A stretch of 59,133 nt of DNA, the filler included, from Babesia bigemina (taxonomy: Eukaryota), in NCBI RefSeq assembly GCF_000981445.1. It is 10 parts of 10 records of this genome, joined end to end, with 100 filler letters (N's around TTAATTAATTAA, not from the genome) between each part and the next. Parts side by side here need not be neighbours in the genome. Positions count along the whole stretch, not along the records: positions 18,271 to 36,169 come from NW_012237377.1; 9 more parts are not named here. One strand, given 5' to 3'. Position numbers and translations under genes: made by a program. The stretch's first letter is position 1; every line of letters begins with the position of its first letter. The notes below the pieces were generated by a model. The model worked only from the letters and a program-made list of their open reading frames with translations, made no database searches and had not been told where the DNA came from. Shown in pieces: positions 1 through 38,643 of this stretch.

Positions 1-1
1 A

Positions 2-8636: not shown

Positions 8637-9310
8637 CTTATCACCCTACATCGCTCCTTTATCCACCTTACATCGCCCCTTTATCCACTCTACATCGCTC
8701 CTAATCCACTCCACATCGCCCCTTTATCCACTCTACATCGCCCCTTTATCCACTCTACATCGCCCCTTTATCCACTCTACATCGCCCCTTTATCCACCTT
8801 ACATCGCCCCTTTATCCACTCTACATCGCCCCTTTACCCACTCTACATCGCTCCCTAACCCACTCTACATCGCTCTCTAACCCACTCTACATCGCTCCCT
8901 AACCCACTCTTCATCGCCCCTTCACCCACTCTACATCGCCCCTTAACCCACTCTACATCGCTCCCTAATCCACTCTACATCGCCCCTTATCCACTCCACA
9001 TCGCCCCTTAACCCACTCTACATCGCCCCTTAACCCACTCCACATCGCCCCTTTATCCACTCTTCATCGCTCCCTAACCCACTCCACATCGCCCCTTTAT
9101 CCACTCTACATCGCCCCTTAACCCACTCTACATCGCCCCCTTATCCACTCTACATCGCCCCTTATCCACTCTACATCGCTCCCTAACCCACTCTACATCG
9201 CTCCCTAATCCACTCTACATCGCCCCTTAATCCACTCTACATCGCCCCTTATCCACTCTACATCGCTCCCTAATCCACTCTACATCGCTCCCTAACCCAC
9301 TCTACATCCC
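8637..9310 (+). repeat. 21-bp satellite A upstream of the ves leader
   Basis: Tandem CCACTCTACATCGC units. Confidence 0.97.
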
Positions 9311-9336
9311 TCGAATTACCTCGCCATAATACCGCT

Positions 9337-12300: not shown

Positions 12301-12763
12301 AACAAACATTTGCAAAAATTAAAAACCAACATCGGCAAGAAGGAACATGGCGCTGATGCTGCAGTTGGTACGCTGCAGAAAATCCACGACAATCTTGTTA
12401 CCTTGTTGAACGGTGACATTAGCCAAGTCATCAATGACGCCACTGCCTTCAAAAAACAAGCCAATCAATTGCGTGATAAAACAATCGGAGCACTCAACGG
12501 ACACGTCGAAGATGAAGTTAAAAAAGCCGAAACCGCCCTCATCACCCAGGCCAACAAAAACTACGTCACGTCCGTCAAAGAGATGCTGACTGCCTTCGCC
12601 GACAAGGTGCAGAAGGAACTGAAGCCCCTCCCCGGCGAGATCGACACCGACAGGCAGCACGGCTTTAAGGGTTTCATGCGGACGTTGCAGGGGACGTTCA
12701 ACGGTGATGAGACTTTGACTGACAATATTGACAAACTCAAGGGTCTCGTAAGTGAACTGTCAG
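9337..12763 (+). CDS. ves1: ves1b-type antigen, 5' part. Leader ATG 9337 is in frame but interrupted by TAG 9433 and TAA 9460; next in-frame ATG is 9616 (MGFL); 3' end cut by the contig end. Coding or pseudogene status unresolved.
   Basis: GIVYSDLDRLCDGVMGFL motif, coiled-coil centre, FADKVQKELKPLPGEI motif shared with the 2913 gene. Confidence 0.8.
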
Positions 12764-17752: not shown

Positions 17753-17905
17753 AGTGATTGTGAACGCGGAATTAGGTCGGCCGTGCCGTTTTTCCGTTAG
17801 AATAATATTTCAAGCAGATTCGTCTAAACGTTCTGCTGTCACTATCGTAATACACATAGCGTTGTCTGCTAACGTTTTGTGAGCGACATTCCCTTTTGCG
17901 TAACA

Positions 17906-18270: not shown

Positions 18271-18347
18271 GTAGAGTGGATTAGGGAGCGGTGTAGGGTG
18301 GATAAAGGGGCGATGTAGAGTGGGTAAAGGGGCGATGTGGAGTGGGT
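18271..18347 (-). repeat. 21-bp satellite A, edge of array
   Basis: 3-4 units, then junction sequence TAATAATCACCACTT. Confidence 0.9.
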
Positions 18348-18363
18348 AATAATCACCACTTCG

Positions 18364-18925
18364 GTCATGTCATCGCTGCCGTAACCATGTCATCGCTGCC
18401 GTGACCATGTCATCGCTGCCGTAACCATGTCATCGCTGCCGTAACCATGTCATCGCTGCCGTGACCATGTCATCGCTGCCGTCACCACGTCATCGCTGCC
18501 GTGACCGTGTCATCGCTGCCGTGACCATGCCATCGCTGCCGTGTCCATGTCATCGCTGCCGTAACCATGTCATCGCTGCCTAACCATGTCATCGCTGCCG
18601 TGACCATGTCATCGCTGCCGAGACCATGTCATCGCTGCCGTGACCATGTCATCGCTGCCGAGACCATGTCATCGCTGCCGTGTCCATGTCATCGCTGCCG
18701 TGACCATGTCATCGCTGCCGTGTCCATGTCATCGCTGCCGTGACCATGTCATCGCTGCCGTGTCCATGTCATCGCTGCTGTAACCATGTCATCGCTGCTG
18801 TGACCATGTCATCGCTGCCGTAACCATGTCATCGCTGCCGTGACCATGTCATCGCTGCTGTAACCATGTCATCGCTGCTGTGACCATGTCTTTGCTGCCG
18901 TAACCATGTCATCGCTGCCGTAACA
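18364..18925 (-). repeat. 20-bp satellite B, about 28 units
   Basis: Tandem GTCATCGCTGCCGTRACCAT. Confidence 0.97.
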
Positions 18926-18928
18926 TTA

Positions 18929-19115
18929 ACTTGGTCAGGTGCTTGGTCATCACGTTGGTCAGCACATTGGTCAGCACTTTGGTCATGGCATTGGTCAACA
19001 CGTTGGTCAGACATTGGTCACCACTTTGGTCAGCACCTTGGTCAGCACTCTGGTCATGGCATTGGTCAGCACCTTGGTCAGCACATTGGTCATCACGTTG
19101 GTCACCACTTTAGTT
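18929..19115 (-). repeat. 12-bp repeat C (TTGGTCA core), about 15 units
   Basis: Direct reading. Confidence 0.9.
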
Positions 19116-19233
19116 AACTATTACACAATCACATACAACGATTAATGAGTGATTCAAAACATTAGACAACAATTAGTTGTATAGGTGAGTAGGTGATGCT
19201 AGGTGAGTGTAGATAGTGAACACGTGAGTACGA

Positions 19234-22200
19234 TTATGGTTGCAGATAAAACACTTTGCCCAGTTTGTTAACACGTGCTGCGGCGAGTAGTGATTGAGCG
19301 GCTATACGATGACTCGAGGGACTATGTAGATGCGATTTGATGTGGAGCAGGTCGAGGCGGATGACCATGATGTGGAGGAGGTACAGGACAGAGAGGAGCC
19401 AGAGAGCGAGGACAAGGTAGGAGAAGGGTTCGCGGATTCTCCACAGTAACATGTCGCATTGCTTAAATAGGTCAGTGAAATAGTCGGAGTTAACAACATT
19501 GTACAGGTGACTTCGCATGTTGAAGCAGTTTCTTTTTAACGATATCAAATTCTGCGCATCCCTGAATGTGAAACCGTATTGGTATAACGTTGGCGATACG
19601 CCGTTGCAATGCACAACGGAAGTACATTGGCAACCCGTTCCTTTCTCCGCCGGATTAAGCATACCATGACTCTCTCCCTTGCATATATCGGTATGCAAGC
19701 AGTTCCTGCATCCCCAGTCTTCACATCTTATAGCCTTAAACGCGTCGAGGAGACTTGCAAGATATTTATGGAATGTCCACGGCAAGTAAACTGCCCATGA
19801 CAGGTACGAGTTAGATTGCTTGTTGACAAGGTAATGATAAGTGTCGCAGCTTAGGGGGGATAGGTACGGGACGCAGTGCTCCTGAGTGATGCAGGAATTG
19901 GTCAGTGAAATGCACGACAGATTAAGTTTATTGTTGGTACGATTCGGGCTGCGATGCTCGGTTGGTGTATTGCCATAGGCTTTACACATCGGTGTTGTCA
20001 ACTCATCCGTATTTTCATACAGCTTGATGGAGCTAGCGTTAATAGAATTTGCGATGGTGTCTGCCAATGTTTTAATGCCGTCAACCTTACTCTGCTTTGA
20101 AGCACTAAGTCCCTTGGCAAGTGACACTGCAAACTGGAAGTGCTCCGGCAAGTTAGTTGGAGGCCTGGGTGCGAGGGTGAATAGACACGCAATAATACCG
20201 TTGCCTAATATCTCTTTAATAATGCGGCATAATTGTTCACCCGTTTTAATTGACCCAGAAAAGCCTCTGAATCCAAGGGGCGTTAAGCATGGCATTCCAG
20301 GCTTATTACCGGGGCACGTTTTGCATTCGGATTTACAACCGACATTCGTGAGCTGATGAGGCAAGTGACCCGGCAAACAGTCATTTAAGTAACTCATCAA
20401 CGGAGAGGTTGGCTGGCAATTTGGTTGACTGTTTGGTTGACTGTTTGGTCGGCACTTTGGTTGACACTTTGCCTGGCACGTTACTTCCTCCGTTGATCTG
20501 TCGTTACAATGCGATTTGGTCGTAGGCACATTTTTACCGTACTGGCAGTCCGCCCAACCGAACTCCATGGCCGAATAACTACACTTGGATTCGAGGAATC
20601 GGAACACGGAGAGCAATCTACGAAGCATGTCGACTAACATTGGCAAGCAGTCGTCCGCCGTCTTAGGGTAATGCAGCTTGAGGGAATTGTTTGCGTATTC
20701 GCAGGCGTACCTGGTGTGCTCATCACCTGTGCCGGCGATTCTAGCCAACACGTCGTATGATTTGGAGCAAATTAGTTCAATCACAGCATAGATATCTTTA
20801 TATGTGAACTTATGTGGATGCGCATCCAGGTAGTACGCGTTTTCATCATCGAACTCAATTTCAATTCCCGAGTCACCGCTATCTATGGCTTGCTTCTTAG
20901 GTTTATCAAGCAGCTTGGTGATGCCGCCAGGTAACGCTGAATATACGGTACTATGAGGGAGCCCTGAGAACCAGCAGAGTATTTCGTATATACTGCACGG
21001 ATGCCTTTTGGAGAATAACGTTGATAGATGACATACTTCGTTATACTCGTCGAGGTGACTGTAGAGGCATGCTATGAAATCCATGATATTAAAGTTCCAT
21101 TCTTTCTCCCGTGATCTACACTGCGGAACGTGTTCTAGATTCGACATTTGTATGATCTTACCGAGAATTCCATCGATATGTTTGCCAGTGAACGTATGTC
21201 TGCACTGCAGCTCCCCGTCCTGATGCGACTTCTGACTGGTAGGAACAATGTAACCGCACTGCTTGAGGAACTCACCAAGAGGGTTTTCTTTATCAATTTC
21301 ATCTTTAAGATGTATAGCTTTCTTGCTCCAACTACCCTCGCACCTCCTCTTCAACTCCCCGAGGTCCTCCACCCACATCGGCAGGCAGCTCATAAACACC
21401 TTGGCGCAGCGCGTAGCGTCGGCGGCTGTCTCCTGTTTGCCGCCCTTTACCTCCTCCCAAGTAATTCCCTTACTACCACAATACCTATTAACATACGCCT
21501 TTTCCATCTCCTTTACCAGCCCTTGCATCCCTGCCTTCAGCGCATCCAGGAGTTGCGGGTGGTGCGGGTTCGCGAAGGTAGCGGGGTCGAACGAGGACAG
21601 GGTGGAGGTCAGGTCGTGGAGGAGGGAGCGGAAACCGGAGTCAAAGGTGAAGGTGCGTTTGTTGTCGTGGAGGTGGGACAGGAGGGCGTGGGTGCGGGCT
21701 TGGAGGCCGGCGACCAGTTGGGAGGAGGGGGTGGGGGTGAGTTGGGAGGTGATGTAGGTAAAGAGGGGATGTAAGTAATGTCTAATTTTATCTGCTGTCC
21801 ATTTTGACTCTTGTACGCCCGTAAGTTCCGTAAGTGTTTTGTGATTTTGATTCATGTACCAGAGCAGGCACTTGATACCGCTGGCTCTGTCCTCGTCGAT
21901 GATGTGATCGATGGCGGAAATTTGAGTGGAGACGAGGGATCTGAGGGCTTCTAAGTCCGATTTGTGTTGGATGGCATACATTTTTCTCACATGGGTAGTG
22001 ACGACGGTAAAGGCAGATTCGGCTTTAGTGAGGAGGGTTGTTTTGAGTTCTGAGACAGCTTTAACAAGCGACGTTTTGGCAGTTTTTGAAGTTTCTCGTA
22101 AAGCTTTTATGGCATCTTGTAGAGCGCCGTCAGCAAGTTCTACAGCTTCACTAATGGCTCTTACTTTTGTTTTAATCTTACTTCTCAAGACCTCCATCTT

Positions 22201-25200
22201 CTGTAAAGCATTCTGCCTAGCATTGTCGACTTTTTTTGGAAGTGATTCTAAATCGTTGATTATGCTATTCATATATCGTGCATTGGTGTTTGACGTGACT
22301 TGTGAAACTCTTTTCTGTAGCGCTTCAAGGTTACTATATATATCGGTCAGTTTATCCACTTCGTCAGGGTATATACCATTATCGTCACCAACCATGGCTC
22401 CGAGTTTTGCCAAATGGTAACTAAGACTATTGTTTTTTCCCCCATCGCTCTTCTCGACCAAATCCTTAACGGCGCCGGTAAATTCGCTGAGTCGAGTGTA
22501 CACCGCTAGAAGGGCATCGGAGAGTACAGTTGCAGTAATAAATTCGGTACCATTGTTATTCAACGCTCCTGTTACTTTTGTTTCAATATCCCTAATTTTC
22601 CGGGGCAGTGTGCCTCCCAGCTTATCGAGTGGACCCGAAAGGCTGGATTGAGTAATTTGGCGTTCATAATTTAGAAAAACTCCAGCCTTTAAACTGACGC
22701 TGTTGGTTGTATGATCGTCGCCAATGGCGGCATTAAGTTTTCCGTATACATCACTTTCAAAGGCTGACTTTCCTAGCTTACCGCTGAGACCATCGTAGGC
22801 GCCTTTAAAAGCATTCATGAGGCCATCTCTACCATTTATCTGTATATCATTTTTGCCAGTACCTGGAATATGTTTTTCAACTTCCGCAGCGACATCCTTG
22901 TCGGCGTTATACATTGAAAGATCAACCGAGGTGCCATCTGCGGATACAAGAGTGGCGGAACCAGAGACAATTCCAGTATGGCGGTCACTTTGAGCTTCAA
23001 CAAGATTATTGAGAAGAGTCTCCGCTGTTTTGTAAGCGTCGTCCACATTCACAATTTTTGATTGCTTTAGTTGGTCCTGGAGATCGGTAAACGCTTTCAA
23101 CTCCGTGGCGGCTTGATTGGCTGTGTATTACAGCGCTATTACAATGTAACGGACGGCAGCCTGAAGATAGTTTTTCAGAGTTCGTGTTTTGTTAGCCTTT
23201 TTCACTGCTTTATCTTCGATTGCATCCACTATGCCATCGACAAACGCATCGCTACTAGCGGTGACATTCATAATTGTTATTTGATCATTAAGCTTCCTCG
23301 CAAACCCACTTATGCAAGCGTGTATTTTTTGAACGCATTTCGAGATGTCATCATCGTCAGAAACTGAAGTGAAAGTGAAAGCTCCTGAGATCCCCTTCAG
23401 CTTGTTCTTGATCTGCACTGCGATGTCATTGATTCTTCCCGATTCTATGGCACAATTATTCTCGTTCACATATTGCGGCTCGAAATACTCCCTTCCCTTG
23501 TTCTTTTGAACGTACTGCTCAATATATTTTCTCACCACGTTATTATTTTTTAAAATGTTTTCTAACCATATTATCACCGTATTCTCAAACCCTGTTGTCT
23601 GCTTGAACTGCTTTGCATACGTCGAAGTGACGTGTTTCACATATCCGTGCAAACCGTTGCCATTTCCATCATTGCCCTTAATAGCGCTAACTTGCGTCTG
23701 AATTGTTTTGAGAAGATTCTTAACATGGTTTTGCAAACTACTGACAAGCTTCATTTCTAAGCCATGTAAATCCCCTTTCACATTATTTTCTAGACCATCC
23801 CAATACTGTGTCTTCAAAAGATTGACATGACTCCAAATTTCATCTCTTATTCTCCCTTTCACAATTCGTAAATCTTTCTTAAGCTCCTCGTCCATTGTCT
23901 TAACAGCCTGTAATGCCACATTAATACTACTTGTAAGTGCTTTCTTAGCCTCCGCTATGGACGTCATAAATCTATCAGCCTTTTCTTTTAGATTATCAGC
24001 TGCGAATTGAACTTTTTGATATTCCGCACTTGAGAGCCTATCTTTGTCTAGTTTCATGATAATGTCACCAATCTTTGTTTTCACTGCATAAACGACATCT
24101 TGCGCCTTTTTTTTCCATTCATTCAACTTGCGATTCTCCGTTACCATGTCCACACGAATGTGCGTCGTATCCATCATCATTGCGCTGAATTTCTGCTTCA
24201 GGTTAGAATCGGATGTTTCAGTGCTCGTAATATCACTCATTTGGTCGTTCACATCTGCAAAGAGTTTTTCGATTTCATTTCTGTAATCGTTGCTAAATTC
24301 GTCATGTAAAAACGCATCAGCTTCTTTCAATTTTTCGTGGATACCTTGAAACTGATCTTTTTTCTTATCTTCCAAAGCGGAGACGCTTCGACGAATTTTA
24401 TATAATTCCTTATGCACATCATCTCCGACTTTTTCACACACCTGATCGACGTGTTTCTTAACGTCATTCCTTTGCCACTCCAACTCTGCGTCCACCCTCT
24501 GCACCTGTGTCAACAAATCCGGATTTTTTGCAGATTTATTTAACATTTCTACCGATTTCTTAACAATCTTTATCTCATTCATTACGTTGGTTTTTAACGA
24601 TTTATCAAGCTCACTAATTTTATCTTCTTCAATTTGGCTGACGTCAAAGTCAATGTTACCGATAACCTCCGACCAAGTCGACAGCTGATCAGTGAGGGAA
24701 GAGTTTTCATTAATTTTATTTTTGTAATTACCGTTCATATTATTAATTAACCAAGTTAATTCATCTGTTACTTTTTTGGTTTTATCATTTATCTCCCTCT
24801 CATACCCCTCCAACCACTCCTTCACCGCGCCGACAGCATCCGCAAGCCCTTCACGCCCGGAGCCAATTTTACTATCTACAAGTTTGAGAACACTTTTAAG
24901 CTTTTTAGTGTCTCCACTGATGTAATTATCATAAGTTGTCACCTCATTTTCGTTTTTCACCGCATCAAGCACACCACTCAAAAACGCCATCACCCCGTCA
25001 CACAGCCTGTCCAGGTCGGAGTACACAATCCCAGTGCCATCGTAGCCTTTGGAAGCAGAGTTGAAGCCGAGGAAAGTCTCGAGGCCAGTGCAAAGGTTAG
25101 TAAGGATGTTAGTAGGGTTGTTATTTGAGGTATTTTTGAGGTTCAAAATTTCATCGAATTTCTTGCCAGGCTCCCTAGGCGGCACACGGTCAGGGCAGTG

Positions 25201-25269
25201 GCAAGAGGTAGAAGAGAGGAAGTGAAGGGTGACAAGGCACAAGTTATTAGGATGGTTTATAGAGGTCAT
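19234..25269 (-). pseudogene. ves1: Full-length ves1b-type gene (2011 codons) with a single in-frame TAA at 23130..23128
   Basis: ORFs 23128..25269 and 19234..23100 are in the same frame (offset 2169 nt). Reads AVRYIVIAL*YTANQAATELKAF versus AIRALLTALQSTVQRINDELQTF in the 29829 paralog. C-terminal TM and tail are intact. Confidence 0.85.
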
Positions 25270-25296
25270 AGCGGTATTAAGGCGAGGTAATTCAAG

Positions 25297-25907
25297 GGAT
25301 GTGGAGTGGGTTAAGGGAGCGATGTAGAGTGGGTTAGGGAGCGATGTAGAGTGGGTTAAAGAGCGATGTAGAGTGGATAAAGGGGCGATGTAGAGTGGAT
25401 AAAGGAGCGATGTAGAGTGGATAAAGGGGCGATGTAGAGTGGGTTAAGGAGCGATGTAGAGTGGGTTAAGGAGCGATGTAGAGTGGGTTAAGGGGCGATG
25501 TAGAGTGGGTAAAGGGGCGATGTAGAGTGGGTTAGGGAGCGATGTAGAGTGGATTAAGGGGCGATGTAGAGTGGGTTAAGGGGCGATGTAGAGTGGGTTA
25601 AGGGGCGATGTAGAGTGGGTAGAGGAGCGATGTAGAGTGGGTTAAGGGGCGATGTAGAGTGGATAAGGGAGCGATGTAGAGTGGATAAAGGGGCGATGTA
25701 GAGTGGATAAAGGAGCGATGTAGAGTGGATAAAGGGGCGATGTAGAGTGGGTTAAGGAGCGATGTGGAGTGGATAAGGGGCGATGTAGAGTGGATTAAGG
25801 GGCGATGTAGAGTGGATAAAGGGGCGATGTAGAGTGGGTTAAGGAGCGATGTAGAGTGGGTTAAGGAGCGATGTAGAGTGGGTAAAGGAGCGATGTGGAG
25901 TGGGTAA
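25297..25907 (-). repeat. 21-bp satellite A, complete array of about 29 units
   Basis: Both ends visible within one contig. Confidence 0.97.
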
Positions 25908-25929
25908 TAATCACCACTTAGGTCACCAC

Positions 25930-27871
25930 TGTCATCGCTGCCGTAACCATGTCATCGCTGCCGTGTCCATGTCGTCGCTGCCGTGTTGATGTCATCGCTG
26001 CCGTGACCATGTCATCGCTGCCGTGACCATGTCATCGCTGTCGTAACCATGTCATCGCTGCCGTGACCATGTCATCGCTGTCGTAACCATGTCATCGCTG
26101 CCGTAACTATGTCATCGCTGCCGTAACCAAGACATCGCTGCCGTAACCAAGACATCGCTGCCGTGACCATGTCATCGCTGTCGTAACCATGTCATCGCTG
26201 CCGTGACCATGTCATCGCTGTCGTAACCATGTCATCGCTGCCGTAACCAAGACATCGCTGCCGTAACCAAGACATCGCTGCCGTGACCATGACATCGCTG
26301 CCGTGACCATGTCATCGCTGCCGTAACCAAGACATCGCTGCCGTGACCATGACATCGCTGCCGTGACCATGTCATCGCTGCCGTAACCATGTCATCGCTG
26401 CCGTGTCCATGTCATCGCTGCCGTGACCAAGACATCGCTGCCGTCACCACTGTCATCGCTGCCGTAACCATGTCATCGCTGCCGTGTCCATGTCGTCGCT
26501 GCCGTGTTGATGTCATCGCTGCCGTGACCATGTCATCGCTGTCGTAACCATGTCATCGCTGCCGTGACCATGTCATCGCTGTCGTAACCATGTCATCGCT
26601 GCCGTAACTATGTCATCGCTGCCGTAACCAAGACATCGCTGCCGTAACCAAGACATCGCTGCCGTGACCATGACATCGCTGCCTCAACCATGTCATCGCT
26701 GCCTCAACCATGTCATCGCTGCCTCAACCATGTCATCGCTGCCGTGACCGTGTCATCGCTGCCGTGACCATGTCATCGCTGTCGTAACCATGTCATCGCT
26801 GCCGTAACTATGTCATCGCTGCCGTAACCAAGACATCGCTGCCGTAACCAAGACATCGCTGCCGTGACCATGACATCGCTGCCTCAACCATGTCATCGCT
26901 GCCTCAACCATGTCATCGCTGCCTCAACCATGTCATCGCTGCCGTGACCGTGTCATCGCTGCCGTGACCGTGTCATCGCTGCCGTGACCATGTCATCGCT
27001 GCTGTAGCCATGTCATCGCTGCCGTGACCATGACATCGCTGCCGTGACCATGTCATCGCTGCCGTGTCCATGTCGTCGCTGCCGTGTTGATGTCATCGCT
27101 GCCGTGACCATGTCATCGCTGTCGTAACCATGTCATCGCTGCCGTGACCATGTCATCGCTGTCGTAACCATGTCATCGCTGCCGTAACTATGTCATCGCT
27201 GCCGTAACCAAGACATCGCTGCCGTAACCAAGACATCGCTGCCGTAACCATGTCATCGCTGCCGTGACCGTGTCATCGCTGCCGTGACCATGTCATCGCT
27301 GCCGTAACCATGTCATCGCTGCCGTAACCATGTCATCGCTGCCGTGACCGTGTCATCGCTGCCGTGACCATGTCATCGCTGCTGTAGCCATGTCATCGCT
27401 GCCGTGACCATGACATCGCTGCCGTGACCATGTCATCGCTGCTGTAGCCATGTCATCGCTGCCGTGACCATGACATCGCTGCCGTGTCCATGTCACCGCT
27501 GCCGTGTCCATGTCATCGCTGCCGTAACCATGCCATCGCTGCCGTAACCATGTCATCGCTGCCGTTGCCATGTCATCGCTGCCGTGACCAAGACATCGCT
27601 GCCGTAACCATGTCATCGCTGCCGTAATTATGTCATCGCTGCCGTGACCATATCATCGCTGCCGTGTCCATGTCATCGCTGCCGTGACCAAGACATCGCT
27701 GCCGTGACCATGTCATCGCTGCCGTGACCATGTCATCGCTGCCGTAACCATGTCATCGCTGTCGTAGCCATGTCATCGCTGCTGTGTCCATGTCATCGCT
27801 GCTGTGTCCATGTCATCGCTGCTGTGTCCATGTCATTGCTGCCGTGTCCATGTCATCGCTGCAGTAACCAT
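25930..27871 (-). repeat. 20-bp satellite B, about 97 units with higher-order duplications
   Basis: Tandem units; variant blocks recur. Confidence 0.97.
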
Positions 27872-27873
27872 CA

Positions 27874-27980
27874 ACTTGGTCAGGTGCTTGGTCAGCACTT
27901 TGGTCACCACTCTGGTCATGGCATTGGTCAGCACTTTGGTCAGCCACTAGGTCACTCACTGCTCATGTGATTGGTCAGCA
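27874..27980 (-). repeat. 12-bp repeat C (TTGGTCA core)
   Basis: About 7 degenerate units. Confidence 0.85.
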
Positions 27981-28077
27981 ATGTAATCATTACTCTGTCT
28001 AGCACATTAGGTGTAGTTGCCAGTCAGGTGATCTGTGGGATTTGGATTACGATGTTTGCGCTAACACATTGCTGAGA

Positions 28078-28960
28078 TCAGCTGTAGAACGCGATGCAGA
28101 AGGGTATCTTGCGTACGAGGAAATCGCGGATGTTGCGGCCCACCGGAAAGCGGAAGATGCACAGGTCGAGCAGGATGATGGCGACGATGAGGGCAACGAT
28201 GACGGCGGCGATGGCTTTGGGGTCAGGGCGGAAAGGTGGAGCTTTGTTTTCTAGCTTGAGAGCTTCGGGAGGAGATTGATGCTCTTGTTTGGCGGCTTGT
28301 TGCTGAGCTTCGGAGGAATCAGGGAGAGAATGTTGACTGGTGGAATGAAGGGAGGCGGCGGCAAGGCGTTTACTTTCCTCTTCACGTTTATGTAAACAAC
28401 ATTTACACTCACATTGACATGTATTCCCGTTGCCTCTACATTGGTCGTTACATGGCGTAGGTTCGCACTTGTAAGACCTCAGGTTACCAGTGCGCTTATT
28501 GCGATCATACCAACATCCATTGCAATTGCCAGAAGATTTAGTACACTCAACACAACACCAATAACAACAGATACAATTGAGAAACCTACAACTCGTAACA
28601 CACGTACACTTCCGCCAATCCAACCCTGACATCTTCCCTCTCCCTCCCACTCCCCTCAAGCTGCAAACATATCAATTACCTAAGCAAACACTCACCAACT
28701 GCAACACGTACCACTGCCGCTCCCAGTCCCCTCAACCTGCAAACATATCAATCACCTAGCAAAGCACTCACCAACTGCAACACGTACACTGCCGCGCCCA
28801 GTCGCATCAACCTGCAGACATATCAATCACTAACCAACGCACTCACCAACTGCAACACGTACCACTGCCGCTCCCAGTCCCCTTAACCTGCAAACTTATC
28901 AATCACTTAAGCAGCACTCACCAACTTCAACACTACCACTGCCGCTCCCAGTCCCCTCAT
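28078..28960 (-). CDS. Predicted 5-exon, 247-aa small Cys-rich membrane protein with a ves-family-like C-terminus. Exons 28960-28922, 28887-28847, 28811-28772, 28736-28696, 28660-28078.
   Basis: Last exon is the 193-aa ORF (Cys-rich domain, TM IAAVIVALIVAIILLDLCIF, tail RFPVGRNIRDFLVRKIPFCIAFYS). Four GTGAGT...TGCAG introns of 34-35 nt splice to a stop-free 744-nt frame from ATG 28960. Confidence 0.6.
28644..28960 (-). repeat. About 75-bp tandem repeat, about 4.2 units, each one mini-exon plus one mini-intron
   Basis: Unit on - strand: GTTGAGGGGACTGGGAGCGGCAGTGGTACGTGTTGCAGTTG|GTGAGTGCTTTGCTAGGTGATTGATATGTTTGCAG. Confidence 0.92.
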
Positions 28961-29476
28961 CAACACGCACCCTCACCCCTGTGTCCCCCCAGCCCAGGCC
29001 ACCGACACCCACGCTGCCCAGGATACCACAGATGCCCTGACGCGACGCATGTGATCGGCACCAACTGTCACTCTAAATTATTCACTATTCGCAACGCCAT
29101 TAAAATTGCAGCGAACCCCGTGCGCTCAACTCCCACAGTGCAGCAGCACCGTGCTACGAGCCGCCGTATCGGCGCCATGCTGGCGGAGCGTGTCGGCTAC
29201 GTGCCTAAATGTGATATCAACATTCGCTACATCGCCGCCTATAAACGCTACTTAACCAGACCAACGCGGATTACGCCACCCTGCCAGTGACTCGCAACAG
29301 ACGGCTTAGATCACCCGCCGCGGTCTTCACGACCGCCTATGTTAGCGACCAATCACCCAGCCTCACGTGACACTGACTCAATGGGCAACGCGGACGCCTC
29401 TCACAGTCAACGCACAGCTCAACGCAACAACTAATCAACGTGCTACAACACCCACCAAATTACGGTTCATCCGCCA

Positions 29477-29682
29477 GCTTAGCACGTTGCCTGGTTGCTA
29501 GGTTAACACTTTGCCTGTGTGCTAGCTTAGCACTTCGCCTGGGTGCTAGCTTAGCACTTTGCCTGCTTGCTAGGTTAGCACCTTGCCTGGTTGCTATCTT
29601 AGCACTTTGCCTGTGTGCTAGCTTAGCACGTTGCCTGTGTGCTAGCTTATCACTTTGCCTGGGTGCTAGCTTAGCACGTTGC
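29477..29682. repeat. 24-bp tandem repeat GCTTAGCACTTTGCCTGTGTGCTA, about 8.6 units, internally palindromic
   Basis: Units start at 29477, 29501, 29525 and so on; TAGCAC...GTGCTA arms in the consensus. Confidence 0.95.
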
Positions 29683-29828
29683 ATTGTCGTTTACTCATAA
29701 CCCAATTTAGGTGCTATTTAGTTTACAGGTTGCCGCTAGAGTAATTCGAGACATTAGACTACGTTTGTCGGTTAGGTGAGTAGGTGAGTAGTTACGTGAG
29801 TTGCTGTGAATTACAATCGTGAATACAA

Positions 29829-32800
29829 TTACGGCTGTAGATACGATATCTTGGCAAGCCTTCCGACTTGCGCTGCCGCCAACAATGATTGCGCCGTTAT
29901 CCTGTGCGACGACGGTGTTCGCAGGTGTGAGCGTATGTGGAGCACATCCAGTCTGCCAACCATTACGCAAATGAGGTAGAAGAGGGACAGTGACCAGAGC
30001 GCGACGTTCATCCACAAGAAAGGTGCGCGGATGGTGAACATGAATTTATCAATGGCTTTGAAAAACTGCACAAGATGTGAGTCCTTCTCAAATGCCTCCG
30101 CAAATACATAGCAGAAATCTCTGCACGTGCGTTTCTTCTCAATGCCTGCGCTTCCGTTCAGCCTCTCTGGATCGCCGAGAACGAAGCCGTACTTCGCCAA
30201 TGTCGGCAGCGTAGCATTGCACTGTACAATGGATTTGCAATTGCGATCGTGATATCGTGGCGGATCTTTTTTGGATGTAGTAGGACACCCCTTGATGCAC
30301 GATTTACCATGGCAATTCGATCCCCTGGCACCGCATTTGGAATTGCACTCATCATACAATTTCTTAAGCAGATCGTAGAACGATGCCGTCAGGTAAACGA
30401 TCCACGACAAATACTTATCGGCGTGTTTTGACGAGAACGTCTCGTAGATGGCGTGAGTGATGGGCCGCAAATAAGGACCGCATACTACGGCGTCCCTTGA
30501 TAAGCATACGAGACTGCCCAGGCTACCATCGGAGTGGCCCTTCTTCAATGCTGAGTGACTAGGGGTAAATAAGTGGTAGACGTTCAACTCACCATAACTA
30601 CGTCCGAAATTGGCTGCTTTAACTTTCTCCTCAAATGCCTCTTTCTTGTGTTTGTTACCGTGCATACCCCAGCGATCGGTGAGGTGATAGTAGAAGCTGA
30701 ACATGTCCGTTAGTGTTTTCGGAGCACTGGGTAGCAGGCAGTTGAGGTAACCGCACAGTCTAGTGAGAGGGGAGTTAGGACGGCCACAAAAATCGTAAAG
30801 CACCTCGCATATATTGCGGCCCATCATCGTATGCGACGCGGTGGCACCGATGTCAGCGAAGCCCATCGGAGTTCGGCACGGCATACCAGGTGTACTACCA
30901 CACGTGCCACATGACAGACTGGATCCCCTAGCCGTAACCGAATGCGGCAGGTGGCCTTTCAAACCGTCCTCCAAGAACGATTGCAGTGGCGACTTGACGC
31001 CGCAGTTGGGATATTGGCCACCCGTTTGGTTGCCACTTTGGTCATGCCGTTGGTCGCAGTCTTGCTTAGGGCACTGCTTCGTGTTGCACTGCCAGCCCGA
31101 CCCACCGATGTACCTGCCGTAGTGGCAGTCCCTCCAGCCGCTGAGCTGAGTTGTAAGTTGACACTGCTGCAGCAGGAAGTACAGCTGGTGGTAGAGGCGC
31201 TTGAGCAGGTCGAACAACGTACACAGTAACTGAATCATGCTGGTTGGGTAATCTAACTTGAGCGAGTTGTCGGAGAATTCACACGCGTAGATTCCGTCCT
31301 TGTGACCGTGGCCTAGTATAGCAGTGAGGACGGCGTGGGAGTGGGCAGACACATTGTAGAGCTGCTTTTCGACGTCAGTGTATTTGACAGGTGACGGGTG
31401 CGCTTCGAAGGGCTGCAGCGTTTTAGTACCCGGCCTTTGCTTGTCCTCCTTCATGAACTCAGATTCAACGTGCTTCTTGAACCTCTCGTACACGGGGTTG
31501 AACTGCAGGCCGCAGCACCAGACGAGAATTTCGTAAACGGAGCAAGGAGCCCGGGGTTTCTCAATACGAGTAAGGTGGCATACGGTGAAGTAATCGTGTA
31601 GACTTGAATATAGCTTTTGAACGACGCCATCATCCGTGGCGACCTCTACGGTCAGGTCAGCAGAACCATCGGTACGGAGAAGTGAGGCATCCGCGGGCTC
31701 ACCTGCGACGAACAACTTATGTTCAGCGTTTGTGAGATGTTTGAGAATGCTGCTACCGTTGAAGTCTTGTCTGTGATTCAGCTCGCCATATGGAATGGTC
31801 GGCTGAGCACCAATGTCGTAACCCTGATCATGGAAGAATGTTTTGTGCAAACTATGATTGGGGTTCGTGGAATCGTACATTTTGTAGCTTTCCCAGCCTT
31901 CAGCATCAAGTCCAGATTTGAGGTGATCAAGTGCAGTGTATACAATGGGAATCATGCTTAGACACACCATTGCGCCACGTTTTCCGTCAAGTGTTAATTC
32001 GACATCTTTCTGTTTCGCACTTTCGGATGATGCCTTATCCTTCAGTGTGTCGACGGTAGTTGTCGTTTTAGATTTTTCGGAATCAGGCAGCTCTATCACC
32101 CAGTGCTTGATGGGCTTCGCTCCTTCGTACATGTTTATGTAGGTCTTGTCAAGCTCGCCAACCAGACCCATAAAACCTAATCTTAGAGCGTCTAGAATTA
32201 ATGCGGAAGACTCACAGAGCTTGTCGGATGTCAAGCCGCCAAGTGCCTTTCTAAGCCTGTTTAGGTAGTCCATGAACGTCCTATCATACCGCTGCGAATC
32301 TTCGATGGCAGTAAGCAGCATACGCAATGCGTCGTGTGACGGGTTGGCTTTACCAAAATTGTACGTAAGATCCGGCTGTTTAGCTAGATAATGGAAGAGA
32401 CGCTTTAATGCTCCGTAAAGTTTCGTTGATGCTTGGCTAAGCGGCGATTTTTGTCCAGGGGAAGCTTTATCCGGAATCTTTTTCAAGGCCTGCAAACCTT
32501 TCTCGTGCTTGAGGAACTGAGTGTCCATTATGCTCATAAACCCCTTAAATCCGGACTCCGACTCTTTAGTGATCAACCCAGGCAGCGGTTGTAATTCCGT
32601 CTCAGCTTTTGTTGAAAAAGCCACGAGCAGACCTTGTAGAGATGTAACGTACTGCTTTCTGGCTTGTGTGATTAAAGTCCTCTTAGCGCTCTCCACTTGT
32701 GAATCGACGTCTCTTCCTAGTGCCTGGATGGTGGCGGTACCGGAGTGGTCTACAGTTCCAAGAAATTTTTTGGCAGCATCCAGGGCTACTGCGACCGGAT

Positions 32801-35114
32801 GTTTCAAATCGTTGAAGGAGTGTTGAAGTTCCTGGAGTTCACCTTTATTGGGAGTTTTTCCAACCTTAAAATTTTTAAGGTTCTCTAATTTTTTGTTTGC
32901 GAAAAAAGCGGCATCAGATATTGTGCGTGTGAGCAACTTGAGAGTATCAGTAATTTTAGTGGACATCTCGGTAATAGCTTTGGTAGTTATCTCCACTGTG
33001 ATGTCGTTAATTTGGGATTTCAAAGAGCCGCCATCTTCTTTCAGTATTGGGTCGAGATCGTTAACTCTCCCTGTCACAGCCGACAATGAATCAGTGATCT
33101 GTCGAGCTAAACTAGTATTGTGATTGTCATCTATGCTAATGTTTTGTTTAATCTGTTTGATCTTGTCTACAGTGCCCTTCACGTTGATGCCGAGATCGCA
33201 TAGCGATACGGCAAATGTTTGCAGTTCGTCGTTAATTCGCTGTACAGTGGATTGTAAAGCTGTTAGAAGTGCACGAATCGCAGACTTAAGATGTGAATCG
33301 CTGTAGCTGATGTAACTCGGAGGCCTACCTTTGGTACAAAAAACACTCTCAATATCTCCGCATATCTCCTCCGCAAATTTCAATACCGCATTAGTTGGAT
33401 CATTGAACTTATCTGCTATCGCTTGCGCAAACCTACCGCAAACCTCCTGGACATATTCCACTTTCTTCTTCAAGTTCTTGCTTTTTATTACAACGTCGCT
33501 TTCTGCACGGGCACTGCTTATTTGGTTGCTCAGCTTATTCTTAATCCTCGTTGCGATTCCTTGAATATTTTTATAATTCAATTCATCTTTTTCGGTAGTT
33601 ACATATTCCGCATTAAACGGAAAGCCATTTTTTAATCTATCCTTATTTTCGCTTATATACCTCTTCATACAATATTTAACTGCAGCATTATTTTTTAAAG
33701 CATCACTCACCCACTGTTCCACCTTCTTTCCAAACTCATCCGCATTGAATCCACTAGCATACTCCTCAATACCGTTAACAATTTTATCTAGATGGCCATT
33801 TTTGATTGTATTTGTCACACCTGAACCCAGCGTTTGTAGTTCACTACTAAGGAAATGCCAATCCTTCACTAATCCCTGCTTACTTCCACCGACTTCTCCT
33901 TGAACGTTTAATTTCAACACTTTAAAATACTCTTCAACCTGCGTAACCAACCCTGTGAGTCCACCTTTTACTGTGCTCTCAATATACGTACTAAGCTCAT
34001 CCCTACGTTTCCTTAATTCCGTCACCGCATCCTCAATAGGATATTTCAGACTAGTAAGGCTGTTGTCGGTCTGCTCAGTAATTTTTTTCAGATGTCCCTG
34101 CGTGACTTCAATTTCTTTATCAGCATTGTTGATCCATTCCTGTAATTCGTCAACGTGCTGCGGCAGCTCTTTGTTTATCTTCTCAAGCTGCTGGAATATC
34201 GTCTGCACCATCTGCCTCAAACCGCGGATCAACTCATTTACTTTATTACCAATTTCGCGATTAACGCACGTACCAACACCTACGAGCGTTGTTTTAATAC
34301 ACGCCTCCAAGCTCTGAAAGCGCTCCTTCTCCTTCGCTGCCAACTCACTCAACCTGGTTTTCTCATGCACAACGGTCCTACGTACATTATCTATTCTATC
34401 ACGTAATTTATCACTAAGATCATTAATTGCGTTTCTAGTTGTTTCATCATTATTCTGCATATCTAAAGTTTTATTAAAGTCGGCGGCTCTCTTTTCATAT
34501 TCTGCCAACCTCCTCTGGACCTCTTCCGCAGCTTGTTCATATTTCAAAGTCTCATCTGCTACACGATTATTTTGTACAATTTCACTTACCGTTTTTTTGA
34601 GTCTCTTCATCTCTCTGTCGAAATCTGTTATTTTGTTCTTGACATGGTTGCTGGAATTTCTGACACCATCATTATACCTCCCCACCCCTTCGACCACCTT
34701 TACAATCGCATCATTAAAACCTTTTTTACCGGCGTGTTTATTGGTGTTAAGACTCTCAATTGCATCATTCAAAGTATCTTTATGCTGCCCTAAATGCTCT
34801 TTGATGTTACTGAGAACACCACTCAAAAATCCCATCACTGCATCACACAGCCTGTCAAGGTCAGAGTACACAATACCACTGCCATCGTAGCCTTTGGAAG
34901 CAGAGTTGAAGCCGAGGAAAGTCTCGAGGCCGGAGCAGAAATTAGTAAGGATGTTAGTAGGGTTGTTATTTGAGGTATTTTTAAGGTTTTAAATTTTGTC
35001 AAATTTCTTGCCAAGCTCCCTAGGCGGCACATGGTCAGGGCAGTGGCAAGAGGTGGAGGAAGGAAAGTGAAGGGTGACAAGGCACAAGTTATTATTGTGG
35101 TCTAAAGAGGTCAT
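29829..35114 (-). CDS. ves1: ves1b-type antigen of a second C-terminal subclass. Leader ATG 35114 is in frame but has TAA at 34991; open from 34988 to the stop; first downstream ATG is 34835 (MGFL).
   Basis: GIVYSDLDRLCD, KSPLQSFLED..GHLPH, GMPCRTPMGF, TM FLWMNVALWSLSLFYLICVMVG, tail RLDVLHIRSHLRTPSSHRITAQSLL...YLQP. Confidence 0.85.
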
Positions 35115-35141
35115 AGCGGTATTATGGCGAGGTAATTCGAG

Positions 35142-36169
35142 GGATGTAGACTGGATAGAGGAGCGATGTAGAGTGGATAAAGGGGCGATGTAGAGTGGGT
35201 AAAGGGGCGATGTAGAGTGGGTTAAGGGGCGATGTGGAGTGGATTAGGGAGCGATGTGGAGTGGGTTAAAGAGCGATGTAGAGTGGGTAAAGGAGCGATG
35301 TAGAGTGGGTTAGGGAGCGATGAAGAGTGGGTTAAGTAGCGATGTAGAGTGGGTTAGGGAGCGATGTAGAGTGGGTTAGGGAGCGATGAAGAGTGGATAA
35401 GGGAGCGATGTAGAGTGGGTTAGGGAGCGATGTGGAGTGGATAAAGGGGCGATGTAGAGTGGATAAGGGGCGATGTGGAGTGGGTTAGGGAGCGATGTAG
35501 AGTGGGTAAAGGGGCGATGTAGAGTGGATAAAGGGGCGATGTAGAGTGGATAAAGGGGCGATGTAGAGTGGGTTAGGGAGCGATGTGGAGTGCGTTAAGG
35601 GGTGATGGAGAGTGGGTTAAGGGGCGATGTAGAGTGGGTTAAGGGGCGATGTAGAGTGGATAAAAGGGCGATGTAGAGTGAATAAAGGGGCGATGTAAGG
35701 TGGGTTAAGGGGCGATGTAGAGTGGTTTAAGGAGCGATGTAGAGTGGTTTAAGGAGCGATGTGGAGTGGGTAAAGGGGCGATGCAGAGTGGGTTAAGGAG
35801 CGATGTAGAGTGGATAAAGGGGCGATGTAGAGTGGGTTAGGGAGCGATGTAGAGTGGATAAAGGGGTGATGTAGAGTGGGTTAGGGAGCGATGTAGAGTA
35901 GGTAAAGGGGCGATGTAGAGTGGGTAAGGGAGCGATGTAGAGTGGATAAGGGGCGATGTGGAGTGGATAAAGGGGCGATGTGGAGTGGATAAAGGGGCGA
36001 TGTAGAGTGGATAAAGGGGCGACTAAAGGAGGTTAAGGGGCGATGTAAGGTGGATAAAGGGGCGATGTAGAGTGGGTTAGGGAGCGATGTAGAGTGGGTA
36101 AAGGGGCGATGTAGAGTGGGTTAGGGAGCGATGAAGAGTGGGTAAGGGAGCGATGTAGAGTGGGTAAAG
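35142..36169 (-). repeat. 21-bp satellite A upstream of the ves leader, runs off contig
   Basis: Tandem units. Confidence 0.97.
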
Positions 36170-36269: not shown

Positions 36270-37784
36270 GTGGATATCGGAGCCTTCGGTGTTCTGTACT
36301 TTAGTGACGCCGGTGATAACTAATTGCAGTCTTTCGTTAATAGTATCTCTGATGTGTTTTATCACATTTTGCGTTGCCTTCAATTGACCATTTGAACGAA
36401 AATAGCTTTTAGTCACGTTAGTATGCGCATATGCATCAATCGACGAATATACTGGTTCTCCGGATTTGAAAACGTCTTCCAACCATTGTTCAACCTTTGC
36501 CTTGAAACTTTCTCCTTCAAACGTTTTGGCATAATCCTTGACTTTCTTTTCGATATTACCGAGATTGCTTGCTTGTTCACTCTCTACGTATATTCCGTCA
36601 ACAAGCTTACGAATGTGCGCCTGCAACGCCTCCCATTTATTCTCTATACTTTCCTCATTCGTCTCAGTTGTTCCGTTTTTTTGAACACCTTTGCGTATCG
36701 CATCAAACTCTTCATGAGCAAAAGCTGCCAAATTGCTCATTGCCAACGTGTTGGATTTTAAATTTCTATGAATTTCCTCAACCGCATTCCTAATGGTATC
36801 GAAATAAAACGTTATGTACGATTTGTAATCTACGTCCAATCTGCCAGCCTGCTTCAACGCTTCTTCCAGGAGCCCATTTATTATTTTAAAACGATCTTTC
36901 CTTGTTTTATTAAGCTCATGAATTCCGTCTAATATCATCGTGAATTTCTGCTCTAACATATATTTGACGTTCTCACTCTGTCTATTTATGTCGTTCTGAA
37001 GACGTTTCTTTTGCTTACGTAACTCATCGTCCACCCTCTTTGCCTGCTCCGCAAATTTTGCGCCGAATGCAGTATTTTTTAAAACATGTACTGCCCCTGC
37101 AATCTGATTCATTTCGCGTGTTATTTTCATTTTTAATGCGATGTCTAAGGTATCAACATCGTTTTCAATTTCAGTGACCGTTGATGATATACCGTCAACA
37201 GTCGACTGCCAGCGCTGCAACTGTTTTTCTAGGTTTTGAGTGGCATCTATTTCTGTTATTTTTGCGCTTATTTTATCGTCTCTCAAGGTTGCTAATTTAG
37301 AATTAACTGCCTCAGTCCGCTTATTCAACTCGGCAACATAGTCATGAAGTACACGCATCACATGGTCTATGCAAACACCAAATCCATAAACACCATTATG
37401 CATATTATCTAAAATTTTATTAAGGTCAAGTTCAGTTATCAAAGTGTATGTCTTAACGCTTGGATCATCTTTCACCGCACCAAGCACGCCACTCAAAAAT
37501 CCCATCACCCCGTCACACAGCCTGTCCAAGTCAGAGTACACAATCCCAGTGCCGTCGTAGCCTTTGGTCTCAGAGTTGAAGCCGAGGAAAGTTTCGAGCC
37601 CAGAGCAGAGGTTATTAAGGATGTTATTAGGGGTGTTATTTGAGGTAATTTTAGGGTTCAAAATTTAGTCAAATTTCTTGTCAAGCTCCCTAGGCGACAC
37701 ATGGTCAGGGCAGTGGCAAGAGGTGGAAGAGGGGAAGTGAAGGGTGACAAGGCACAAGTTATTGCTATGGCTAATGGAGGTCAT
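36270..37784 (-). CDS. ves1: ves1b-type antigen, 5' part. Leader ATG 37784 is in frame with TAA at 37667; next ATG is 37505 (MGFL); 3' end cut by the contig end.
   Basis: NILNNLCSGLETFLGFN..GYDGTGIVYSDLDRLCDGVMGFL followed by coiled coil. Confidence 0.8.
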
Positions 37785-37809
37785 AGCGGTATTATGGCGA
37801 GGTGATTCG

Positions 37810-38643
37810 AGCGATGTAGAGTGGATAAAGGGGCGATGTAGAGTGGGTTAGGGAGCGATGTGTAGTGGGTAAAGGAGCGATGTGTAGTGGGTAAAGGAGC
37901 GATGTAGAGTGGATTAAGGAGCGATGTAGAGTGGGTAAGGTAGCGATGTAGAGTGGGTTAAGGGGCGATGTAGAGTGCGTTAAGGAGCGATGTAGAGTGG
38001 GTTAGGGAGCGATGTGGAGTGGTTAAAGGGGCGATGTGGAGTGGGTTAGGGAGCGATGTAGAGTGGGTAAAGGGGCGATGTAGAGTGGGTAAAGGGGCGA
38101 TGTAGGGTGGATAAGGGAACGATGTAGAGTGGGTTAGGGAGCGATGTAGAGTGGGTTAAGCGGCGATGTAGAGTGGATAAAGGAGCGATGTAGAGTGGGT
38201 AAAGGGGCGATGTAGAGTGGATAAAAGGGCGATGTAGAGTGGGTTAGGGAGCGATGTGGAGTGGGTTAAGGGGCGATGTAGAGTGGATTAGGGAGCGATG
38301 TAGAGTGGGTAAAGGGGCGATGTAGAGTGGATAAAGGCGCGATGTAGAGTGGATAAAGGGGCGATGTAGAGTGGGTTAGGGAGCGATGAAGGGTGGGTTA
38401 GTGAGCGATGTAGAGTGGATAAAAGGGCGATGTAGAGTGGGTTAGGGGGCGATGTAGAGTGGGTTAAGGGGCGATGTGGAGTGGATTAGGGAGCGATGTA
38501 GAGTTGGTTAAGGGGCGATGTAGGGTGAATAAAGGAGCGATGTCGAGTGGATTAGGGAGCGATGTGGAGTGGATAAAGGGGCGATGTAGAGTGGATTAAG
38601 GAGCGATGTAGAGTGGGTTTAGGGGCCATGTGGAATTGAATTA
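37810..38643 (-). repeat. 21-bp satellite A upstream of the ves leader
   Basis: Tandem units. Confidence 0.97.

What the first reader, a model, noticed from the sequence alone, without database searches (positions are those of the whole stretch)
18271..36169. Head-to-tail ves cassette array with an invariant three-repeat spacer
Seen, reading in gene direction: stop, 3' flank, 12-bp repeat C, 20-bp satellite B, fixed junction (GGRTAATAATCAYYACTTMGGTCA on + at about 2459, 18344, 25903), 21-bp satellite A, leader, next ves. The order recurs three times on two contigs and is complete at 27980 to 25269. Array lengths vary widely (satellite B 7, 28, 97 units). No unique sequence that could be a promoter lies between the upstream gene and the 25269 ves. 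Known: B. bovis expresses ves1 from a divergent head-to-head pair and varies it by segmental gene conversion. Inference: this is a differently organised, repeat-punctuated and probably promoterless donor library.
Basis: partly seen in the sequence, partly recalled or inferred. Interest (0 to 1): 0.75.

Follow-up and report, generated by a model that had tools for sequence, protein, structure and literature searches.

The report
Repeat-punctuated archive of headless antigen genes
In this cattle blood parasite, surface-antigen genes that lack their normal front end sit nose-to-tail, separated by short DNA repeats in a fixed order, and they likely form a mostly silent chromosome-end store that would be copied from to vary the parasite's coat.

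Summary
The window is ten joined contigs, the first eight from Babesia bigemina. The order C (12 bp), B (20 bp), junction, A, leader, ves1b is real (3 junctions, none in 100 shuffles) and is covered in an independent DNA run. Corrections: A is 22 bp. The spacer is not invariant, because the only complete copy follows a short non-ves gene and one of three ves 3' ends leads into other repeats. Among database proteins 15 of 15 interior ves1b carry it, 6 of 7 chromosome-end ones and 55 of 55 small-contig ones lack its first motif. Stops cluster in the leader (4 in 280 codons) and not in the bodies (1 in about 6,700). Published coordinates put such genes in head-to-tail arrays pointing away from chromosome ends. 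Published blood-stage RNA-seq shows one full-length gene at 98-310 CPM and end genes at 2 CPM or less. Against silence: a proteome assigns its highest ves1b-like abundance to a leader-bearing end gene. Donor use is inferred, not shown. New variant of a known design (VSG, msg archives). Interest 0.55.

The parts
18271..18343 (-). Satellite A, last 3 units at the contig edge
18344..18367 (.). Fixed junction J between A and B
18366..18921 (.). Satellite B, 20 bp x 28
18930..19108 (-). Repeat C, 12 bp x about 14; resembles the 4-codon repeat inside ves1b about 1.2 kb before the stop
19109..19233 (-). Conserved 3' flank (86% to the flank at 2786-2915)
19234..25269 (-). 5'-truncated ves1b gene; leader ATG at 25269; one in-frame stop at codon 714 (23128-23130)
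24976..25101 (-). Anchor block (about codons 57-98) shared by truncated and full-length ves1b; pN/pS 0.26 over 5 window copies
25102..25297 (-). Leader: about 30 bp plus 56 codons, seen in B. bigemina hits only; holds stops in 3 of 5 window copies (not this one)
25298..25905 (-). Satellite A, 22 bp x 28, complete; strongly G/C-skewed (0.83), G4Hunter mean 0.97
25902..25925 (.). Fixed junction J
25925..27871 (.). Satellite B, 20 bp x 97
27872..27960 (-). Repeat C, about 6 units
27961..28077 (-). 3' flank of the short gene; no blastn match to the ves flanks
28078..28632 (-). Short Cys-rich single-pass membrane-protein gene (184 aa), member of a B. bigemina multigene family
28644..28959 (-). 76-bp repeat x 4 upstream of the short gene
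28960..29475 (.). Unique 516 bp; only candidate non-repetitive promoter region in the contig (for the short gene; inferred)
29476..29682 (-). 24-bp repeat x 8.6, in the position that C takes after other ves genes
29829..35114 (-). 5'-truncated ves1b gene; leader ATG at 35114; stop at leader codon 42, then 1,719 open codons
35143..36169 (-). Satellite A, 47 units to the contig end
2133..8536 (-). Second contig with the same order: A, J (2459), B x 7, C, flank, ves1b 2913-7523 (open from the leader ATG), leader, A
8637..12763 (+). A, leader (ATG 9337, two stops in the leader), ves1b 5' part
36270..38643 (-). ves1b 5' part, leader (ATG 37784, one stop in the leader), A
49785..52079 (+). A x 89, leader (ATG 51759), a second partial leader copy, then a longer ves1b 5' remnant

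Best explanation
These are Babesia bigemina ves1b surface-antigen genes that lack the canonical front end and lie head-to-tail behind a fixed run of short repeats, likely at chromosome ends and mostly silent, and they likely serve as a sequence store that would be copied by gene conversion into full-length, expressed ves1b genes. Shown: anatomy, loss of the canonical N-terminus, stops in the leader but not the body, shared blocks at both gene ends. Inferred: subtelomeric position of these contigs (from look-alike genes in the published reference); near-silence (from another isolate's RNA); satellites, leader and 3' flank as homology for exchange among archive copies; the anchor block and C-terminal block as the only homology shared with full-length genes and hence the crossover points for donation.
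For: Truncation: a profile of 27 canonical N-termini finds nothing in six frames of the window (best E 1.1). 15 of 15 interior reference ves1b carry the canonical N-terminus, 6 of 7 chromosome-end ones lack it (Fisher p 9e-5), and 0 of 55 small-contig hits have the first-exon motif. For the 25269 gene the whole upstream DNA to the previous stop is visible and holds no such exon. Selection pattern: 4 stops at 3 sites in 280 leader codons, against 1 stop in about 6,700 body codons (my count); anchor pN/pS 0.26. Position: 29 of 30 large chromosome-end genes in a published table point away from the nearer end, with 14 consecutive gaps of 1.2-4.6 kb. Expression: in published calf blood RNA-seq one full-length gene has 98-310 CPM; six chromosome-end tag prefixes return only two ves-sized rows, at 0.8-2.0 CPM. 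Independent DNA run X1: anchor, leader, J, B, C and 3' flank are each covered by several contigs while the gene interior is patchy; one contig bridges A-J-B. Truncated and full-length genes are interleaved on a C-terminal tree. Rare exact 12-mers shared between the classes cover 2.7% of full-length genes, against 1.0% with B. ovata partners.
Against: A published proteome assigns peptides to many chromosome-end genes; the leader-bearing first gene of chromosome 3 has the highest ves1b-like iBAQ among the rows I saw (11,090 against 8,525), on 3 quantified peptides, one fraction and another isolate. The leader ATG is invariant in 6 of 6 copies, codons 1-25 have pN/pS 0.36, and 2 of 5 copies are open through the leader. 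Exchange is stronger within the truncated class than across: exact tracts of 40 aa or more in 19 of 1,830 truncated pairs, 0 of 976 cross pairs. The dominant transcribed gene shows no cross-class tract over 21 aa. 10 of 13 full-length tags searched are also absent from the RNA table, and cross-isolate mapping can hide divergent genes. No full-length ves1b DNA was available, so whether an expressed locus carries satellite A or C is unknown. B. ovata hits also often lack the canonical N-terminus as annotated (28 of 41 without IDW), so annotation error contributes to the class counts.
Confidence: 0.5

Rival explanations
1. Satellite-led copies are genes in their own right: the repeats or junction act as a switchable promoter, translation starts at the leader ATG, and one telomere-proximal copy is expressed at a time as a shorter VESA1b.
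For: Invariant ATG in 6 of 6 leaders; leader codons 1-25 pN/pS 0.36; 24 of 77 B. bigemina hits are annotated from this ATG; top ves1b-like iBAQ falls on a leader-bearing end gene; the dominant ves1c transcript of B. caballi comes from near a telomere (PMC10463595 passages); VESA1 has no N-terminal signal peptide to lose (PMC6630957).
Against: Stops in the leader of 3 of 5 copies; end genes at 2 CPM or absent in blood RNA-seq, including that top-iBAQ gene; its peptides could come from a mosaic full-length protein; all 9 of the 18 labelled VESA1b proteome rows that I could match to a sequence are full-length.
Confidence: 0.25
2. The arrays are by-products of subtelomeric turnover: one truncated unit with slippage-born minisatellites was spread by block duplication and ectopic exchange, so the fixed order reflects common descent and the copies donate little or nothing.
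For: Long exact tracts are shared almost only among truncated copies; the dominant expressed gene has no donor-like tract; repeat C looks like a copy of an in-gene repeat; array lengths vary freely; the leader is absent from 41 of 41 B. ovata hits, so it is young.
Against: Bodies of 4.5-6 kb stay almost free of stops while differing greatly from each other; anchor pN/pS 0.26; the two classes are interleaved on the tree, with at least 5 changes forced by strongly supported branches.
Confidence: 0.2
3. Satellite A (or the whole spacer) is a long intron, and the canonical first exon lies further upstream, so the genes are complete.
For: Five of six 5' ends run off the contig inside A, so their upstream DNA is unseen; canonical ves1b appear to have a short first exon (annotation pattern).
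Against: For the 25269 gene all upstream DNA to the previous stop is seen and has no such exon; two other A arrays abut J-B-C and a previous gene's 3' end; the profile search is negative; most of the roughly 150 residues before the anchor are missing, not only the first exon.
Confidence: 0.05

Closest known systems
BbigVes1b family of Babesia bigemina (PMC4066756)
   Same: Sequence family: anchor block, C-terminal membrane block; best hits are B. bigemina proteins, including tags the paper labels BbigVes1b. The paper reports ves1b loci as often unassembled, mostly subtelomeric, and almost never orthologous between strains.
   Different: In the sections and supplements read, the paper does not describe a truncated class, the leader, the satellites or the junction; chromosome-end copies are 'hypothetical' or 'undefined' in its proteome table.
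Babesia bovis ves1 LAT and truncated non-paired ves1 (PMC2034396, PMC6630957)
   Same: Segmental gene conversion from silent donors; truncated unpaired genes were proposed as functional pseudogenes; pieces of each gene recur as repeat blocks downstream of the coding region, like repeat C here.
   Different: B. bovis genes are mostly divergent pairs on a bidirectional promoter and 75% interstitial; here tandem, one strand, with a shared leader and upstream satellites.
Trypanosoma brucei silent VSG archive with 70-bp repeats (PMC4858185, abstract)
   Same: Silent antigen genes with an upstream repeat of variable copy number and conserved ends.
   Different: The 70-bp repeat is also in the expression site and was shown to give recombination homology. 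Here no expressed locus with satellite A is known, the donors are 5'-truncated, and three repeats plus a junction occur.
Pneumocystis msg-I arrays with CRJE and a single UCS (PMC10622565, passages)
   Same: Subtelomeric antigen genes without their own 5' part, a conserved block at the start of each, conserved flanks, mosaic sequences.
   Different: One genome-wide promoter and N-terminal UCS there; here at least 15 full-length interior genes exist. No satellites are described in the passages read.
Plasmodium falciparum Rep20 and upsB var genes (recalled, no call)
   Same: A degenerate repeat of about 21 bp on the telomere side of antigen genes transcribed away from the telomere.
   Different: Once per chromosome end, and the var gene is complete with its own promoter; here the repeat recurs before every gene in the array.

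Membership tests
BbigVes1b | Conserved VESA C-terminal domain with one membrane helix | tested here: met
   All three complete window genes end in the family C-terminus and fall inside the tree of B. bigemina and B. ovata relatives
BbigVes1b | Homology to B. bigemina genes labelled BbigVes1b | tested here: met
   Hits include 9 tags labelled BbigVes1b in the paper's table
BbigVes1b (full-length, expressed type) | Canonical N-terminus before the anchor block | tested here: not met
   Profile search of the window negative, best E 1.1; tblastn matches begin only near the anchor
B. bovis-type LAT | Divergent ves pair sharing a short bidirectional promoter | tested here: not met
   All genes of the contig are on one strand
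B. bovis VESA1 | Pfam VESA1_N domain above cut-off | tested here: not met
   One sub-threshold match, 16.7 bits against 22, in 1 of the 7 ves pieces among 10 proteins scanned
BbigVes2 | Short secreted protein from the ves1b 5' end without membrane anchor | tested here: not met
   Genes lack that 5' end and keep the C-terminus; the short gene has a hydrophobic C-terminal stretch and no ves hit
Silent donor archive (VSG / msg-I type) | Conserved homology blocks at both ends of a variable body | tested here: met
   Leader, anchor, C-terminus and 3' flank conserved between copies and covered by many X1 contigs; interior patchy
Silent donor archive (VSG / msg-I type) | Subtelomeric tandem arrays | tested here: inconclusive
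   Shown for look-alike reference genes from published coordinates; the window's own contigs carry no telomere tract and are unplaced
Silent donor archive (VSG / msg-I type) | Not transcribed in place | tested here: inconclusive
   Published RNA-seq low; published proteome has peptides; both from other isolates; no RNA run listed
Silent donor archive (VSG / msg-I type) | Sequence is copied into the expressed gene | tested here: inconclusive
   Cross-class tracts up to 36 aa, above species background but below within-class sharing; direction unknown
T. brucei 70-bp-repeat system | The same repeat lies in the expression site | not testable with these tools
Pneumocystis UCS system | A single promoter and N-terminal exon per genome | tested here: not met
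   16 B. bigemina hits carry the canonical N-terminus

The most novel reading that the evidence does not exclude
B. bigemina runs a two-tier antigenic variation system unlike the B. bovis paired locus: a few dozen full-length interior ves1b genes that can be expressed, fed by a telomeric archive of headless cassettes. In each cassette a telomere-oriented, G-rich satellite, a fixed junction and a gene-derived repeat mark the boundaries, seed silencing or breaks, and let cassettes shuffle among chromosome ends before segments are donated between the anchor and C-terminal blocks.
Probability: 0.4. Interest if true: 0.75.

Novelty: new variant of a known kind. Interest (0 to 1): 0.55.

Why it matters
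How B. bigemina varies its surface antigen is open: it lacks the B. bovis paired-locus layout for most genes, and a 2022 RNA-seq paper says the role of its VES proteins is unknown and found no differential ves expression (PMC9806345), although its own table holds a full-length ves1b that is 180-fold up in blood. Splitting ves1b into full-length interior genes and headless chromosome-end cassettes gives testable candidates for expression loci and donors, explains why ves1b loci fail to assemble, and gives fixed landmarks (junction, leader, anchor) for tracking conversion. It would be a third lineage converging on a repeat-marked archive. The multicopy junction and satellites may also suit sensitive species-specific detection.

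Tried and rejected
No RNA holder listed; this is no evidence on expression. The junction pattern and a full-length ves1b query found nothing in metagenome contigs. Three look-ups of earlier findings returned nothing. Satellite B as a relic of the canonical N-terminal coding sequence: tblastn best seen E 0.06, profile E 1.1, rejected. A and B share a 7-bp core in opposite orientation about the junction: p 0.035 in 5,000 unit shuffles, one of six pair comparisons, kept as a weak lead only; B-C shared 6-mer p 0.10, rejected. The 24-bp repeat as a copy of an in-gene repeat: 1 of 40 shuffles reach it against one gene, 10 of 40 against another, not established. My interim reading that only full-length genes have peptides was overturned. 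The careful tree did not finish; the quick tree was used. A leader-only protein search gave only 10 hits from 13 candidates, all seen before. The short protein has no Pfam match and no Atlas hit at 0.9. Locus tags were not found in the B. ovata paper's supplements. The B. bovis promoter paper is not held. X1 depth sums were not read as copy numbers, and uncovered gene parts in X1 were not interpreted. The run X1 share (0.07) says nothing on host or strain.
Full report
What the window is. It is ten contigs joined by nine N-padded spacers. The finding is contig 5 (18271-36169). The organism is Babesia bigemina: the N-terminal 500 aa of the gene at 2913 hit 124 proteins, the 120 listed all B. bigemina or B. 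ovata, the first at 100%, and rap-1 genes lie on two contigs. The last two contigs look like host LINE DNA (recalled, not tested).

Observation. The junction occurs three times and never in 100 shuffles. B has 7, 28 and 97 units, C is 12 bp, A is 22 bp and reaches 89 units. The order is the same in all three places, and all six ves 5' ends follow A and one leader. The spacer is not invariant: the complete copy follows a 184-aa Cys-rich membrane-protein gene, and the ves ending at 29829 leads into a 24-bp repeat, 516 unique bases, a 76-bp repeat and that gene. The unit is better written A-leader-ves1b-(optional short-gene module)-C-B-J. In an independent DNA run (X1), at least 9 contigs cover the junction and one 83-base contig spans A-J-B with 9 differences. 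The leader is covered by at least 22 contigs and the anchor by at least 54, while the interior is patchy, with pieces near 90% identity.

The genes are headless. Interior reference ves1b begin with a conserved N-terminus about 170-200 residues before a conserved anchor block; satellite-led ones begin with a 79-residue leader. Among 22 hits on chromosome-scale contigs, 15 of 15 interior genes have the canonical N-terminus and 6 of 7 end genes lack it (p 9e-5; 'end' assigned by me from tag numbers). Among 55 small-contig hits none has the first-exon motif, 1 has the next motif and 4 have the stretch after it (P0001 and P0053 dropped as likely the window's own genes). Limits: the query was itself a truncated gene, only 7,992 candidates were scored, and small-contig annotation may be poorer. 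A profile of 27 canonical N-termini finds nothing in the window, and for the 25269 gene all upstream DNA is visible. The leader occurs in 24 of 77 B. bigemina and 0 of 41 B. ovata hits.

Selection pattern. Three of five leaders hold stops (4 stops, 3 sites, 280 codons); the five bodies hold one stop in about 6,700 codons (my count). pN/pS is 0.36 for codons 1-25, 0.70 for 26-56 and 0.26 for the anchor, on five sequences only. The body and anchor are thus kept as coding sequence while the leader frame often is not, which fits use after copying into another locus.

Position. The proteome table of PMC4066756 gives coordinates. Converted with contig lengths (checked against an independent coordinate), 29 of 30 large genes near chromosome ends point away from the nearer end, up to 14 in a row at the right end of chromosome 3, with 14 consecutive gaps of 1.2-4.6 kb. 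The spacer here is 2.8 kb. Only 5 of the 30 were confirmed as truncated ves1b by sequence, one more is labelled ves1b, and only genes with peptides under my tag prefixes were seen. If the window's contigs are such ends, the G-rich strand of A (skew 0.83, G4Hunter about 1.0) runs toward the telomere as telomeric DNA does; this is inference.

Expression. In calf blood RNA-seq (PMC9806345) the full-length interior gene BBBOND_0304560 has 98-310 CPM; 2 more of 13 full-length tags searched (of 16) appear, at 3-15 CPM. Six end prefixes return two ves-sized rows at 0.8-2.0 CPM, and six unplaced ves-sized genes picked by fold change have 0.5-5 CPM (class unknown). Other ends and most unplaced genes were not looked up. 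Against this, the proteome assigns peptides to many end genes, and BBBOND_0300010, matched to leader-bearing P0060 by mass and position, has iBAQ 11,090 against 8,525 for the paper's dominant VESA1b, on 3 quantified peptides in one fraction. Both data sets map another isolate onto the reference, and ves1b are almost never orthologous between strains, so neither settles the point.

Exchange. On a quick tree of 69 C-termini the classes are interleaved (full-length label 12 changes, shuffled mean 13.9). Exact tracts of 25 aa or more occur in 39 of 1,830 truncated pairs, 8 of 976 cross pairs and 1 of 120 full-length pairs; of 40 aa or more in 19, 0 and 1. Rare 12-mers cover 7.0% within the truncated class, 2.7% across and 1.0% against B. 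ovata. The dominant transcribed gene shows no cross-class tract over 21 aa. Shuffling within the archive is well supported; donation to expressed genes is plausible and unproven. Repeat C best matches the 4-codon repeat 1.2 kb before the stop in all three genes (27 of 36 bases for one gene; 40 shuffles reach at most 25), so C probably derives from the gene.

Mechanism. Most likely (0.5): a mostly silent chromosome-end archive, shuffled through its shared satellites and flanks, that donates segments between the anchor and C-terminal blocks to full-length genes. Rivals: in-place expression from the leader ATG (0.25), functionless turnover (0.2), intronic satellite (0.05).

What is known. Donor archives with upstream repeats or junction elements are known in T. 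brucei (PMC4858185, abstract only) and Pneumocystis (PMC10622565, passages); truncated donors and gene-derived downstream repeats were noted in B. bovis (PMC2034396, passages and first part of section 11; PMC6630957, section 7 and passages). For B. bigemina I read PMC4066756 (sections 8, 21, first part of 22, 23, 24, 26, passages, the supplementary legends, and searched rows of the proteome file), PMC9806345 (passages, second part of section 14, searched rows of one supplement), PMC5660447 and PMC10463595 (passages). None of what I saw describes the satellites, junction, leader or truncated class. Babesia searches; subscription journals and figures were not visible, and one supplement file of PMC4066756 was not searchable. 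Rep20 is recalled.

Verdict. The grammar is real but not invariant; the stronger result is the split into headless end cassettes and full-length interior genes. New variant of a known kind, interest 0.55.

Noticed in passing
window 28078-28632 (-): Short Cys-rich single-pass membrane protein; 36 hits, all B. bigemina (one likely the gene itself), with a near-invariant C-terminus and tags often next to ves1b genes; no Pfam or Atlas lead. Looks like an unnamed ves-associated family.
   Followed up: partly
window 28644-28959: 76-bp repeat x 4 just upstream of the short gene; several database relatives have it translated into a spurious-looking N-terminal extension.
   Followed up: no
PMC9806345 supplement 1, BBBOND_0304560 (P0101): A full-length ves1b is about 180-fold up in blood stages at 98-310 CPM although the paper reports no differential ves expression; it is annotated only as hypothetical. 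Candidate expression locus.
   Followed up: partly
PMC4066756 supplement 3, BBBOND_0300010 (P0060): An 'undefined product' that is a leader-bearing ves1b has a higher iBAQ than the paper's dominant VESA1b.
   Followed up: partly
window 51735-52079 (+): Leader followed by a second, diverged partial leader copy and a longer ves1b 5' remnant in another frame; truncation points differ among cassettes.
   Followed up: partly
window 12864-18170 and 38744-49684: rap-1 tandem loci: rap-1a variants with different C-termini alternating with a second rap-1 type, one copy of which ends early at 42729. The alternating layout is published.
   Followed up: no
window 52180-59133: Two contigs of lower GC that look like ruminant LINE sequence (recalled resemblance), probably host contamination of the assembly; one has a short CCCTAA run at 52914-52964.
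   Followed up: no
window 1-2032 (+): Open coiled-coil-rich frame with internal repeats of about 80 residues, no blastn match elsewhere in the window; probably the middle of another ves1b.
   Followed up: no
satellites A and B about the junction: A and B share a 7-bp core in opposite orientation either side of J (p 0.035), and the B unit holds a short spaced palindrome; possible protein-binding sites, untested.
   Followed up: partly
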